A stretch of 46,963 nt of DNA from Chromera velia (Eukaryota), in assembly GCA_018398765.1 (NCBI GenBank), contig JAHBMJ010000473.1:1-46963 (forward strand). Direction: 5' to 3'. The notes beneath the pieces are model-generated. The model searched no databases. It was given only the letters and a program-made list of their open reading frames with translations, and was not told where the DNA came from. Below, in pieces: positions 5,623 to 27,284 of the stretch. Numbering within the stretch: the stretch's first letter is position 1; every line of letters begins with the position of its first letter. The translations under genes were made by a program, and so were the position numbers.

Positions 5623-6369
5623 TACGTTTCATCTTTGTCTTCTTTTTTTTCTTTAAAACGGTTTGACTGTTCTGCTTTTGGAGCAATTGTATCGTCAACA
5701 ACGCGGCAAGGACAATTTTTGAGCACTGGAGGCAAGAGTAAAAAGAGCAAAAACGGGAGCAAGAGGGTAGCCATGAGAGAGACGGTAGATTTCTCTAGAA
5801 TTTTTGCACACTAATTGTTGTATTCCGTACTGACGCGGCCCATACAGTCACCCCGGCAGACCCGGCATACCCCTCCCTGCACGGTGCAGGCCATCTGCAC
5901 TTACTCTATCTGTAGCATGCAAACAAATAATTCTGGTTCAGCACGGTGCTTTCTATAACTGCTATTGCCAGCTAATCGATGGAATGAAGTCCTTTGTTCT
6001 AGCGGATGTCCTGACTTATAATCTCACGTGTTACTGACCACGATTAATAGATTTGTTGTACTATGCCTAGACTGTCTGCGTTAGGAGTCTAGCTGGTATA
6101 CAATAGGGTAACGAGCAGTTTCTAAGAAAGACAGACATACACAGTGGCGCGCACTTCTCTTTTCTTCTTGCTCTTGCCTTCTTGATTGACTCTTTGATTT
6201 GAAGGACTCGTCTTGAACCGTCTTGTTCAAGAGTGTATCTTTATAGTTTTTCTCTATCACGCTAGCCACCTCTTTCGAAATACCTTCCTTGTTTGCGGAA
6301 GTGTCTGCTGTGGTAGCGGCACTCCAACAAGCATGCGGACGGGCTTTAAAGACGTTTGTCAACGATGCC

Positions 6370-9300
6370 CGTAAAGAGGTGACTCCTCTTCTCCTAAGTG
6401 AGTGCACTTAATTTGGTTAGATCTCTATTACGGAAAGTCTGTCAGTTCAAGGTTCACTTCCAAACTGCTTCTAGAAGCTTTGTAAGCAAGTGTTGTTTAC
6501 TCAATCCAGGCTATACGCAGCTGACTGAGTTAATTCCATTTTATTTCTATTTTATTTATTTCTCTTCTAATACAGACTGGCATGGTAGCGCCTCCATGAG
6601 CCTGCGTGCGTGTGTTAGTTTCTGAGCTACGGGCATCCCGTACGGCGGCGGTGCGCGTTAGTTCGGCTCACCCCGGGATTAGCAGGTCCCGTGGCTCGCC
6701 TCACTACGTTACGTGCCCCTTCCCCTTAAAGCGTGTGTCTCACGCGCTCTGTCCTTCTTCTCAGCTTTTTTGCGGTTAACTGCCAACCAAAATCAACCGT
6801 ACAATTCCTGTCCATTCACTTTGATCGTCGCTTGAATTCTTCGATTTTCTCTTTCGCATTTCGGAGGTGGGAGGCTGGCTCCCACACCGCTTCACTCTCA
6901 GGGAACCCCACCCATTGCACGTGGTATTGGGTTCCTCTGCCTCTTCCCCGAATACCGAGGACCTTTTCGACTTCATACTCTTCGTCGGCCTAGGAGGGCA
7001 ATCGGATGGCCGGACGGCCCTGTTCTTCGTGGCAGTACAGCTTGCACAGCGATGTGTACACATGGGGGTCTTTGCGGCTTCTCGCTGGTAGGGCGACTTC
7101 GAAATTGTCTTGGGACTGATCGAACTGGATCACTTCGAAGGGACCGAACCACAGGCTGTCGAGCTTGCGGCTGTACAGGGGAACATCGGGCTTTGTAGCA
7201 GTTGCCCACCAGGAACGATGGACAAGTATATAGTCTTCCATATTGATGTCATCGGTTGGGCGGCATCGTTTGTTGGCATTTCGGATCTGACTGGACTGGG
7301 CTGCTTCGAGAGAGGCACGGGCAGCATCAATGGCTTCTTTATGTTCCTTCAAAAAGTTAGAGGCCTCGGGGGAAGGCTGGGCAGAAGGAGAAAGAGAAAG
7401 AGCAGGGAGCGTGAGGGGTTCTCTTCCGTGTTTAAGCTGAAAGGGAGAGCGACCTGTCCCGACATGGACAGATGTGTTGTATGCAAACTCAAGGGACGGG
7501 ATGAATTCCGCCCATCGGTGATGCTGGGTCTTAACGAGGCAACGGAGAGCCTCCTCGATTGTTCAATTCATACGTTCTACTGACCTTGGTGTATCGTGGT
7601 GTGCTGTTGTAGAGAATGACAGGTGCGTGCCCGAGAGGGTGTGTAGGGTCTGCCAGAATCGAGACAGAAAACGGGAGTCTCTGTCACTGAGGATCGTGCA
7701 CTGTCACCCTTTCTTTACTGTAACATTTTTATAATATAGCCGGCTTGCCTGTTCTGCTGTTGCTGTTGTGTAGGTCCGGATCAGGCATACCTCTTTTGAC
7801 AAAGAGTTAGTCAAAACCATAAGACAGTCGAACTGTTCATCTCCGGAGGCGGGCAGTCTAACGAGGAAGTCAATTTGAGTGACTTCCCATGGGTGGTTGG
7901 GAACAGGGAGCGGTCGGAGGAGACCAGGTGGCACTCGGCTGGGAGCTTTGCTTCTCTGGCAGGGATCACAAGTATGAACAAATCTGCGTACATCTCTCTA
8001 CATCTGAGGCCAGAAGTATCTCTCTGCCATTCGACTCTAGGTTTTCCCGACCCCGAAGTGCGCATTCTCGGGAAATGAGTGGCTCTCCCGAATAAGAGCC
8101 ATGCGCTGTGAGCGAGGGACACAAAGGCGGTCCCCCCGGAACAACAGACCATCTCTCAAAGAGAGACCTTTCAAATGGGGCACCAGATGAGGGGAGGGAA
8201 ATTTGTTTAGGAAATTCTTCAGGTAAGCATGCACAGGGGCAAACCAGGGATCGTTTACATACTTCTCTCTGCAGCGCCTCTACAGATCAACATCTCCCTC
8301 AACCTTCAAGGTTATCCGGTACTGACGCTACTCAGTGCTCCCGTGCCCCCCCCCCAAAGAACGGGTCTCGCCAACAACTGCCTCCTCATCCTCATACTCA
8401 GGTTCAAGCTCGAGGAACTCATCGTCATCAGGACTGTCAGCCTGACTAATCATCGGCAGGGTAGGTTGCCTCATCCTGACAGATGACAAAAGGGCAGAAG
8501 GAGAGGACTGGACTAAAGAGGGCGGATTACGGGAAAGTGTGTCGGCAACGATGTTCGCCCTCCCCGGAATATATTTGATCGGAACCGCCATTTCCTCCAA
8601 AAACTCAATCTACCGTCTCACACGCAGACTGCAATGCTCAAACGACTTCTTCAAGTTCTCCAAACTCTTGTGGTCGGTCCAAAACTCCGACCCGGGCGTC
8701 AGGAAATGACGTCAAACCTTCGCATATTTAATGAACAATCACCAACAGCTCTAACTCCTTCACTGGGTAGCGTGCCTCGGTGGAGGTCAGGGGGCAGGAG
8801 CCGAAGGCAAGCAGACAATATGCCCCTGTCTACTGACAGCGCTGAATGACAACTGCTTCGATAGCTTGATACGACTGTGAGACGTCGTGTGCAATGTAGA
8901 CAGGCTGACTGGGGTTAGCCAGTGCAAGGGTGGCAAGCTTAAGGACAGCTTTCTTTAGAGTAATGAATGCCTAATCGTGTACAGGCTCCCACACAAAGGG
9001 GACTGACGTGTGAAGAAGAGAGAGAAGGGGAGAAGCAACCTGGCTGTACCCCCTAACAAACTTCCGAAACCAATTCCCTAACCCCAAAAACTGATGCAGT
9101 GAAGTGTGGTCAGTTGGCATGGGGAAATCCTGGAGCCCTTGCACCTTCTCAGGCGTAGGCCTGAATCCACCCTCACTGATGACCAGCCCCAGGAACTTGG
9201 CTTCAGTCCGAAACCAATCACACTTCAACAGTTTGACATAGAGAGACTCGTCGGCAAGGAGCTGGAGGACGGCCTCCACATCTCTCTCGTGTTCCTCAGG

Positions 9301-26700: not shown

Positions 26701-27284
26701 GATGTAGGGTGAGAGACGGTGAGAGAAAAGAAAGGAAATGTGAGCCGAGCGTGGACGTCGGCCTTGGCGAGCGGGCAGATGTAGGGCCTGTATGAGGCGC
26801 CGCCGTGAGGCTGGCGGGGCACCTATCTGATTGACGGGTTGCTCACACGGAGTATGGGCGCGAGATCGATAAGCACGTGCGTCTGTGCATTGATCGATAT
26901 TTGCAGTGAAGCATGCATTCTGTTTGAAGCCATTGAAAGGGTATGATGATGGACTTAGCAGTATGACCATTGATTGTCAGACCTTACAATATAGGACTCC
27001 CTCAAGACCATCTGAAGATTTATGCTCCAGTTAAAGCCACCACACTGTTAGGGTTCTTATTTCATATCTAGAGCCCCACGTGCACCTCTGACAATATATA
27101 TGGAGACGCCCAGGAGTTGAAGATCGATCACCTCGCGGACCCCAACACTGACCTTGCAAACAATCAAAACCACTGGAACAGCATGGTTGTAAGTCTTCCG
27201 GAGGACCAGCACGCCTTTGTCGTTTTCGACTTCGCCTTCAACCCATCTCCCACCAAACTTTATCCATCTGAGCAAACGGACTGA
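23799..27284 (+). pseudogene. ADF/cofilin-like ORF with signal-peptide-like N-terminus, interrupted by an LTR element (23799-23978 + 27099-27284)
   Basis: The empty-site join is in frame: MFIFKSLIVCLLALGSGRQDLFQRKLQSTIAIRDDLKSTYVEMKIRDSHKYIKFNIHGDT|YGDAQELKIDHLAD...WNSMVVSLPEDQHAFVVFDFAF...KL. This matches the N-terminal two thirds of ADF-H. Confidence 0.75.
23979..27093 (+). mobile_element. Non-autonomous LTR retroelement (LTRs 23979-24292 and 26780-27093)
   Basis: 314 bp TG..CA direct repeats; TSD ataca (23974-23978) vs atata (27094-27098); PBS-like TGGTTAGCAGAGC directly after the left LTR. The ~2.5 kb interior has no recognisable pol motifs. Confidence 0.92.

What the first reader, a model, noticed from the sequence alone, without database searches (positions are those of the whole stretch)
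5816..27093. RIP-like CpA/CpG-targeted C>T hypermutation of repeats in an apparently non-fungal genome
Seen, by hand alignment of three LTR pairs (approximate counts): outer pair ~27 substitutions (25 transitions; ~14 CpA/TpG vs TpA, ~5 CpG); chromovirus pair ~22 (21 transitions; ~5 CpA, ~6 CpG); third pair 15 (all transitions; 5 CpA, 9 CpG). One TSD differs by the same change (ataca/atata), both outer LTRs end ACAATA instead of ACAACA, and TE stop codons sit where CAA/CAG/TGG are expected (for example 3510, 6990, ~8610). Old repeat islands are TpA-rich with sharp borders against GC-rich genes. Established: CpA>TpA is the hallmark of fungal repeat-induced point mutation. Inference: the host has a repeat-directed CpA+CpG methylation/deamination defence.
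Basis: partly seen in the sequence, partly recalled or inferred. Interest (0 to 1): 0.8.

Follow-up and report, generated by a model that had tools for sequence, protein, structure and literature searches.

The report
Alga's retrotransposons decay by C-to-T hypermutation
In the alga Chromera velia, a photosynthetic relative of malaria parasites, retrotransposon copies have piled up C-to-T changes far out of proportion to every other change while single-copy genes have not, which likely reflects a fungus-like genome defence in a lineage with no recognised DNA methyltransferase.

Summary
The host is Chromera velia. The three LTR pairs differ by 61 transitions and 3 transversions, mostly at CpA and CpG. 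Two tests extend this.

First, 25 other gene models of the same chromovirus family depart from the family majority by C>T/G>A in 294 of 356 amino-acid differences. Per opportunity: CpG 6.5%, CpA 5.3%, CpT 2.7%, CpC 2.3%, T>C 0.17%, transversions 0.09%. A second family shows a weaker version.

Second, single-copy transcribed DNA differs from a probable second strain by only 15 transitions and 11 transversions. The excess is therefore retrotransposon-directed, roughly 15-fold, on both strands.

It is not canonical RIP. All contexts are hit, CpG at least matches CpA, there are no strand runs, and a published table lists only four DNMT2-like genes and no RID or DIM-2. One repeat beside an active gene lacks the signature.

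Likely mechanism: repeat-directed cytosine methylation followed by deamination; the enzyme is unidentified. The scan earlier noted a similar CG+CA decay in a fungus. I found no report for Chromera.

The parts
5816..6105 (+). 5' LTR of the outer, low-copy LTR element (TSD CTAAT at 5811-5815 and 11052-11056)
   Evidence: PBS-like sequence follows it, purine tract precedes the 3' LTR
10768..11051 (+). 3' LTR of the outer element; 25 transitions and 2 transversions against the 5' LTR
   Evidence: 10769-10999 reproduced with 0 differences in runs X1 and X2
9863..10651 (+). open frame of 262 codons in the low-copy interior of the outer element; no Pfam match; none of 21 stop-prone codons hit
6370..6713 (-). 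3' LTR of the nested Ty3/chromovirus element (TSD ATGCC at 6365-6369 and 9861-9865; ends read CG...CG)
9517..9860 (-). 5' LTR of the nested chromovirus; 21 transitions and 1 transversion against the other LTR
6816..9507 (-). broken pol of the nested chromovirus (RT, RNase H-like part, integrase, chromodomain); gag, protease and the RT start are missing; frameshift near 8730; 11 internal stops; 75 of 86 amino-acid departures from the family majority are C>T/G>A
   Evidence: high-copy family by summed contig depth
23979..24292 (+). first LTR of the third element (left TSD ATACA at 23974-23978); interior has no Pfam match in six frames
26780..27093 (+). second LTR of the third element (right TSD ATATA at 27094-27098); 15 transitions and 0 transversions
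72..1234 (.). AT-rich element with 208-bp inverted arms (72-279, 1026-1234); 13 transitions, 3 transversions
37600..44444 (-). control, not part of the feature: single-copy transcribed genes; 15 transitions and 11 transversions in 5257 bp against a probable second strain

Best explanation
LTR retrotransposon copies in Chromera velia have gained C-to-T changes on both strands after insertion, roughly 15 times the single-copy transition rate by a rough transversion clock, likely because silenced elements are cytosine-methylated in all contexts (CpG about equal to CpA, above CpT and CpC) by an unidentified enzyme and the marked cytosines then deaminate. Shown: the direction, size and context order of the excess, its presence in two families and three LTR pairs, and its absence from single-copy genes of one control stretch. 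Inferred: the methyl mark, the enzyme (a repurposed DNMT2 paralogue, or a missed or recently lost DNMT), gradual mitotic accumulation, and a defensive effect through stop codons and missense load.
For: LTR pairs 61:3 transitions to transversions. This is above the wheat TE ratio of 2.8 (PMC2996936, passages; p=7e-6) and the mangrove LTR ratio of 5.16 (10.1101/263830, passages; p=0.005; tests). Polarity: the window copy bears A/T where family contigs bear G/C 183 times against 56 the other way in X3, and 161 against 53 in X5. Across 25 other gene models, 294 of 356 differences are C>T/G>A: 3.9% per opportunity, against 0.17% for T>C and 0.09% for transversions. With the context fixed by the amino acid itself: CpG 6.45%, CpA 6.54%, CpT 3.5%, CpC 2.4%, reverse changes 0.16%. 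Second family, 16 of 17 models: CpA 3.7%, CpC 1.6%, reverse 0.47%. Control: 15:11 in single-copy DNA (p=4e-5 against the LTR pairs); nonsynonymous only, 306:34 in the elements against 4:5 in a unique gene (p=0.001). T>C in the elements stays at 0.7 times the background. The element spectrum implies about 6% equilibrium GC, whereas three RNA-confirmed introns are 47% GC. Both strands are hit (3.3% and 4.4%) without strand runs (p=0.18), as expected of gradual decay.
Against: No methylation data were seen. The survey table of PMC12344493 gives Chromera no DNMT1, DIM2, DNMT3, DNMT4, DNMT5 or DNMT6 and four DNMT2, and the paper states that DNMT2-only species have undetectable 5mC. That table also shows all zeros for Phaeodactylum, which has DNMT3, DNMT5 and DNMT6 per PMC9998398, so it can miss genes. 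The ratio far exceeds methylated plant TEs, so passive deamination alone may not be enough. 34 polarised sites (from the 40 rows shown of 477) gave CpA 9, CpC 10, CpG 9, CpT 6 (p=0.53). On unique events the fixed-context CpA excess is only p=0.09. In run X2 the differences over 37600-46963, which come mostly from multi-copy DNA at about 44500-46963, are 110 transitions to 79 transversions with no A/T excess in the window copy (49 vs 61). The control is small (26 differences), mostly exonic, and rests on RNA contigs from one study.
Confidence: 0.5

Rival explanations
1. A convergent RIP-like process: duplicated sequence is recognised by homology and cytosines are converted enzymatically in bursts, perhaps at a sexual stage, by a non-RID enzyme such as a deaminase or a DNMT2-fold protein acting without stable 5mC.
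For: The size of the excess (C>T about 42 times the transversion rate per path) is nearer fungal RIP than plant methylation. The low-copy interior of the outer element keeps 21 of 21 stop-prone codons while its LTRs are heavily hit (p about 0.04 against the LTR rate; p=0.06-0.11 against the high-copy pol). The CpA:CpG mix differs among the three pairs (p=0.049) and one outer LTR carries 18 of 25 A/T alleles (p=0.043). Strand bias may differ among copies (p=0.06). These are borderline and uncorrected for multiple tests.
Against: No same-strand runs (191 observed against 183 +/- 8 expected). Context preference is only about 2-2.5-fold. RIP indices are mostly negative. Copies carry moderate loads and a second family has 24 gene models in one 90% cluster. 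One high-copy repeat lacks the signature. No RID is listed.
Confidence: 0.2
2. No dedicated mark: spontaneous cytosine deamination goes unrepaired in TE heterochromatin because uracil excision is excluded there, so C>T alone rises in all contexts.
For: All four contexts rise 9-26-fold while T>C does not. It needs no DNMT, which fits the published table. Repeats beside an active gene appear spared.
Against: It does not readily explain the CpG and CpA preference (p=1e-12 on all events, 1e-5 on unique events). An increase this large would need near-total loss of repair (recalled from ung mutants; no call).
Confidence: 0.17
3. A genome-wide C>T mutation bias, masked in genes by selection or GC-biased gene conversion.
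For: The control DNA is mostly exonic and 59% GC. CpG is under-represented in introns and exons too (o/e 0.53-0.63). 14 of 17 control transitions are C/T on the minus strand, the coding strand where shown (p=0.013).
Against: The control has 11 transversions to 15 transitions; neither selection on codons nor GC-biased conversion would be expected to remove most transitions and leave transversions. Intron GC is 47% against an implied 6%.
Confidence: 0.07
4. Editing or reverse-transcriptase error during retrotransposition (APOBEC-like).
For: G>A is somewhat commoner than C>T on the pol sense strand (4.4% vs 3.3%).
Against: The two LTRs of one element start identical yet differ at 15-27 sites. A host-derived TSD shows the same change. 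Both strands are hit within single copies.
Confidence: 0.04

Closest known systems
Dim2-dependent mitotic C>T mutation of repeats in Zymoseptoria tritici (PMC8016269, abstract and passages)
   Same: [quoted passage not shown]
   Different: There more than 98% of the C>T changes were at CpA and CpG was spared; here CpG matches or exceeds CpA and CpT/CpC are also raised. No Dim2 is listed for Chromera.
Repeat-induced point mutation (RIP) of Neurospora and other ascomycetes, RID- and DIM-2-dependent (PMC12543289, passages)
   Same: Overwhelming C:G to T:A change in repeated DNA, CpA enrichment, stop codons in TE genes.
   Different: Weak context preference with CpG equal to CpA, no strand runs, no RIP-index signature, no RID listed; homology dependence and sexual timing untested.
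RIP-like TpCpG hypermutation in Pucciniomycotina (PMC3318451, abstract only)
   Same: Inferred from TE alignments; CpG is a target.
   Different: No single trinucleotide target stands out in the lists (not formally tested); CpA is hit as often; the host is an alveolate.
Methylation-driven deamination in plant LTR retrotransposons (wheat PMC2996936, mangrove 10.1101/263830; passages)
   Same: Transitions raised in TEs relative to genic DNA, several contexts, gradual.
   Different: Ratios there are 2.8 and 5.16 against about 20 here; plants have known DNA methyltransferases, and their order is CG and CHG above CHH.

Membership tests
Fungal RIP | C:G to T:A transitions dominate in repeats | tested here: met
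   61:3 in LTR pairs; 294 of 356 in gene models
Fungal RIP | Unique DNA is spared | tested here: met
   15:11 in 5257 bp of single-copy DNA, one probable second strain; small sample
Fungal RIP | Strong preference for one context (CpA in Neurospora) | tested here: not met
   CpG 6.5, CpA 5.3, CpT 2.7, CpC 2.3%; no bias in 34 sites
Fungal RIP | RID/DNMT4 or DIM-2 methyltransferase present | not testable with these tools
   No genome held. A published table lists none, but it has false negatives
Fungal RIP | Strand-coordinated clusters from single episodes (feature recalled, no call) | tested here: not met
   Runs test p=0.18; between-copy strand heterogeneity p=0.06
Fungal RIP | Triggered by homology between duplicates | tested here: inconclusive
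   Low-copy interior less hit, p=0.04-0.11; one high-copy repeat lacks the signature
Fungal RIP | Acts premeiotically in the sexual cycle | not testable with these tools
   Needs crosses or mutation-accumulation lines
Fungal RIP | CpA-depleted, TpA-rich regions by RIP indices | tested here: not met
   Composite index above 0 in 11 of 93 windows; substrate index never below 0.84
5mC-driven deamination of silenced TEs | 5mC on the elements | not testable with these tools
   No bisulfite or raw long-read run among the 12 listed; all are contigs with no library record
5mC-driven deamination of silenced TEs | C>T raised, T>C and transversions not, on both strands, after insertion | tested here: met
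   (transversions were used as the clock, so only T>C is tested independently)
5mC-driven deamination of silenced TEs | A DNA-type C5 methyltransferase in the host | not testable with these tools
   Only DNMT2 x4 in PMC12344493 Supplementary Table 1
Ty3/Gypsy chromovirus (nested element) | LTRs, 5-bp TSD, RT-RH-integrase order, C-terminal chromodomain | tested here: met
   the RNase H-like part comes from relatives' Pfam annotation

The most novel reading that the evidence does not exclude
Chromera velia has independently evolved a RIP-strength, repeat-directed cytosine mutator that uses none of the known DNA methyltransferase families, for example a DNMT2 paralogue turned onto DNA or a chromatin-guided deaminase: a RIP-like genome defence outside fungi, in the closest algal relatives of apicomplexans.
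Probability: 0.3. Interest if true: 0.9.

Novelty: new variant of a known kind. Interest (0 to 1): 0.68.

Why it matters
RIP-strength hypermutation of repeats is treated as a fungal trait; a recent survey found DNMT4/RID only in fungi (PMC12344493), though diatom DNMT4-like genes of unknown function are reported (PMC9998398). A culturable alveolate with about 30 Mb of TEs (PMC4501334), this signature and only DNMT2-like genes on record makes two open questions testable: whether DNMT2-family enzymes can mark DNA with evolutionary effect, and whether repeat-directed mutators arose outside fungi. A practical consequence is that LTR ages and TE divergence in Chromera would be badly overestimated under a neutral clock.

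Tried and rejected
No whole genome was held, so genome-wide spectra and a DNMT search could not be run.

A 24-base LTR motif found 0 matches in the metagenome, viral and prokaryote collections. An integrase query found no relative among 111 candidate stretches in metagenomes.

One search listed no RNA holder of the chromovirus stretch; this is no evidence on expression. Runs X1 and X2 match the window where single-copy, so they give no strain control. The stretch 11348-12030 had almost no cover, which proves nothing.

Rejected as evidence: the stop-codon argument (near-tautological) and RIP indices. Pfam found nothing in the third element's interior (six frames), the outer interior, 1300-4300 (three plus frames each) or 27099-28200 (six frames).

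4mC as the mark was considered and set aside because it is recalled not to promote deamination (no call). The plant retrotransposon proteins were not used as a calibration; published ratios were used.

Searches for a prior report: 'Chromera velia' + 'repeat-induced point mutation', 0 papers. 'Chromera velia' + retrotransposons + methylation, 2 listed, neither on this. 'Chromera' + '5mC', 2 unrelated. chromerid + Vitrella + DNA methyltransferase, 1 unrelated. RIP-like outside fungi, 13 listed, all fungal. RIP with protist terms, none of the 20 listed of 192 contains the RIP phrase. The library lacks most subscription papers, bioRxiv supplements are closed, and 4 of 16 supplement files of PMC4501334 were not searched.
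Full report
Host. A glutamine-cyclotransferase exon at 22187-22657 matches a Chromera velia CCMP2878 protein at 99% identity, and all ten integrase relatives found are C. velia gene models. The genome is alveolate, not fungal. No assembly was available as a file.

Anatomy. A low-copy LTR element (5816-11051, TSD CTAAT) holds a nested Ty3 chromovirus on the minus strand (6370-9860, TSD ATGCC). 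The nested element lacks gag, protease and the RT start, and keeps RT to chromodomain with 11 internal stops and one frameshift. A third LTR element with no Pfam match in its interior lies at 23979-27093 (TSD ATACA/ATATA).

Observation. The three LTR pairs differ by 25+21+15 = 61 transitions and 2+1+0 = 3 transversions (ends corrected). Per available site the rates are CpG 0.21, CpA 0.17, CpT 0.07 and CpC 0.05 (p=6e-4). A ratio near 20 exceeds wheat TEs (2.8; PMC2996936, passages) and mangrove LTRs (5.16, described as elevated; 10.1101/263830, passages), at p=7e-6 and 0.005. Pairs alone do not give direction. The stop-codon argument is near-tautological, and RIP indices are mostly negative.

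Direction from DNA runs. Contigs of four runs were laid on 6720-12030. The chromovirus has summed depth in the thousands against about 25 for single-copy DNA in X1. The window copy bears A/T where other copies bear G/C far more often than the reverse: 248:123 in X1, 247:118 in X2, 183:56 in X3 and 161:53 in X5, with transition-to-transversion ratios of 4.7-6.3. These counts mix private decay with subfamily differences. Only 40 of 477 rows were shown. 34 of those 40 are window-derived C>T/G>A, and they show no CpA bias (CpA 9, CpC 10, CpG 9, CpT 6; p=0.53). This goes against context specificity, although that list favours sites where the rest of the family is invariant.

Family-wide test. I mapped 25 other C. 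velia gene models of this family onto the window's codons. They came; P0024-26, P0072, P0077, P0087 and P0111 were left out as other families or too diverged. 682 residues near gaps or in low-identity patches were masked, and columns needed at least 5 copies and 70% agreement. Over 705 codons, 294 of 356 differences (270 unique) are C>T/G>A, 12 are T>C/A>G, 34 are transversions and 16 need more than one change. Per opportunity: CpG 6.5%, CpA 5.3%, CpT 2.7%, CpC 2.3%, T>C 0.17%, transversion 0.09% (p=1e-12, and 1e-5 on unique events). The window copy departs from the majority at 86 codons, 75 of them by C>T/G>A. Changes that either a transition or a transversion could explain were counted as transitions.

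Context check. The window's third positions may themselves be mutated, so I repeated the count on changes whose context is fixed by the amino acid: CpG 49 of 760, CpA 28 of 428, CpT 27 of 765, CpC 25 of 1051, reverse 7 of 4275. CpA against CpC+CpT gives p=7e-4 on all events and 0.09 on unique events. Both strands are hit (117 of 3551 and 177 of 3999), with no excess of same-strand neighbours (p=0.18) and borderline heterogeneity between copies (p=0.06). A second Ty3 family, 46-57% identical in protein, gave CpA 14 of 379, CpC 14 of 864 and reverse 15 of 3181 (16 of 17 models, one isoform left out beforehand): the same direction, weaker.

Control in unique DNA. Runs X8 and X9 (one study, RNA by guess) differ from the window at fixed sites where X2 (DNA) matches it, and X11 also matches where it covers 37600-38104. 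I infer a second strain; editing is not excluded without its DNA, but removing edited sites would only lower the transition count. Of 40 rows shown (228 in all) I kept 33, dropping one unfixed site and six X11-only rows beside a gap. In the single-copy part (5257 bp) there are 15 transitions and 11 transversions with no significant context bias (p=0.80 at n=15); over all covered DNA there are 17 and 16. The tool's own totals are 22:16 for X8 and 19:17 for X9. Against 61:3, p=4e-5; for nonsynonymous changes only, 306:34 against 4:5, p=0.001. Using transversions as a clock, C>T in the elements is about 15 times the unique-DNA transition rate (CpG 26, CpA 21, CpT 11, CpC 9) and T>C 0.7 times. These factors rest on 11 transversions and are rough. 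The element spectrum implies about 6% equilibrium GC, while three RNA-confirmed introns are 47% GC.

Results against a blanket effect. Differences in X2 over 37600-46963, mostly from multi-copy DNA in and beside an active gene at about 44500-46963, are 110 transitions to 79 transversions, with no A/T excess in the window copy. Short or poorly aligned matches may dilute this, but not every repeat shows the signature. The inverted arms at 72-1234 give 13:3.

Mechanism. Shown: C>T excess after insertion, on both strands, in all contexts with CpG and CpA about 2-2.5 times CpT and CpC, in two families and three LTR pairs, and absent from the single-copy control. Inferred: a cytosine mark on silenced elements followed by deamination (0.5). 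The closest parallel is Dim2-driven mitotic mutation in Zymoseptoria (PMC8016269, abstract and passages), which however spares CpG. The difficulty is the enzyme. Supplementary Table 1 of PMC12344493 lists four DNMT2 and nothing else for Chromera, and nothing for Vitrella, and the paper says DNMT2-only species lack detectable 5mC (passages). The table misses known genes elsewhere: Phaeodactylum shows all zeros despite the DNMT3, DNMT5 and DNMT6 named in PMC9998398 (passages). A missed, lost or repurposed enzyme all remain open. Rivals are a homology-triggered convergent RIP (0.2; hinted by the unhit low-copy interior of the outer element), heterochromatic failure of uracil repair (0.17), a genome-wide bias (0.07) and editing during retrotransposition (0.04).

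Membership and novelty. It works like RIP in outcome. It is not filed as RIP: strong context preference, strand clustering and index signature were tested and not met, and RID, homology dependence and sexual timing could not be tested or were inconclusive (features from PMC12543289, passages, and recall). Searches found no report for Chromera or another non-fungal protist. The passages seen of the genome paper (PMC4501334, 12 of 26 places) give TE content only. PMC5890265 (passages) and 10.1101/2021.11.30.470311 (passages; notes chromodomain-TE expansion in Chromera) do not address it. The scan's notes held nothing on this genome and two fungal analogues.

Noticed in passing
window 6370-6713 and 9517-9860: The chromovirus LTRs end CGTAA...TTACG rather than the usual TG...CA; three of four ends keep CG and the fourth reads TA. 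Family contigs in X1, X3 and X5 fit up to 9860 before continuing into the interior, so CG ends may be the family state.
   Followed up: partly
window 16000-23002 (-): The annotated 816-aa gene model P0001 joins a glutamine cyclotransferase domain to a PQ-loop (cystinosin-like) membrane domain; either a real fusion or two merged genes.
   Followed up: no
window 46364-46963: Very high-copy short repeat (summed depth about 9700 against about 12 in X2) at the 5' side of a transcribed minus-strand gene; no clear C>T decay in the pooled counts.
   Followed up: partly
window 37600-46429: 14 of 17 transition differences to X8/X9 are C/T on the minus strand, the coding strand where introns show it (p=0.013): codon effect, transcription-linked deamination or some editing.
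   Followed up: partly
window 8317-8703: This RNase H/integrase linker differs from a high-depth family contig at 70 of 387 bases, against about 7% over the longer X3 contig; possibly a second subfamily.
   Followed up: no
window 9510-9516: The pol remnant starts directly after the 5' LTR and a PBS-like start; other copies continue with further RT sequence at 9509, so this copy carries an internal deletion.
   Followed up: yes
window 32090-32371 (approx.): A run of 282 N (assembly gap) within a microsatellite-rich region.
   Followed up: no
window 13589-15011: Diverged inverted repeat (13589-13735 / 14856-15011, 72% identity) in a TpA-richer island, possibly an old DNA-transposon relic.
   Followed up: no
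run X5: A marine sediment metagenome holds this chromovirus family in long pieces at about 6-8% difference from the window copy.
   Followed up: partly
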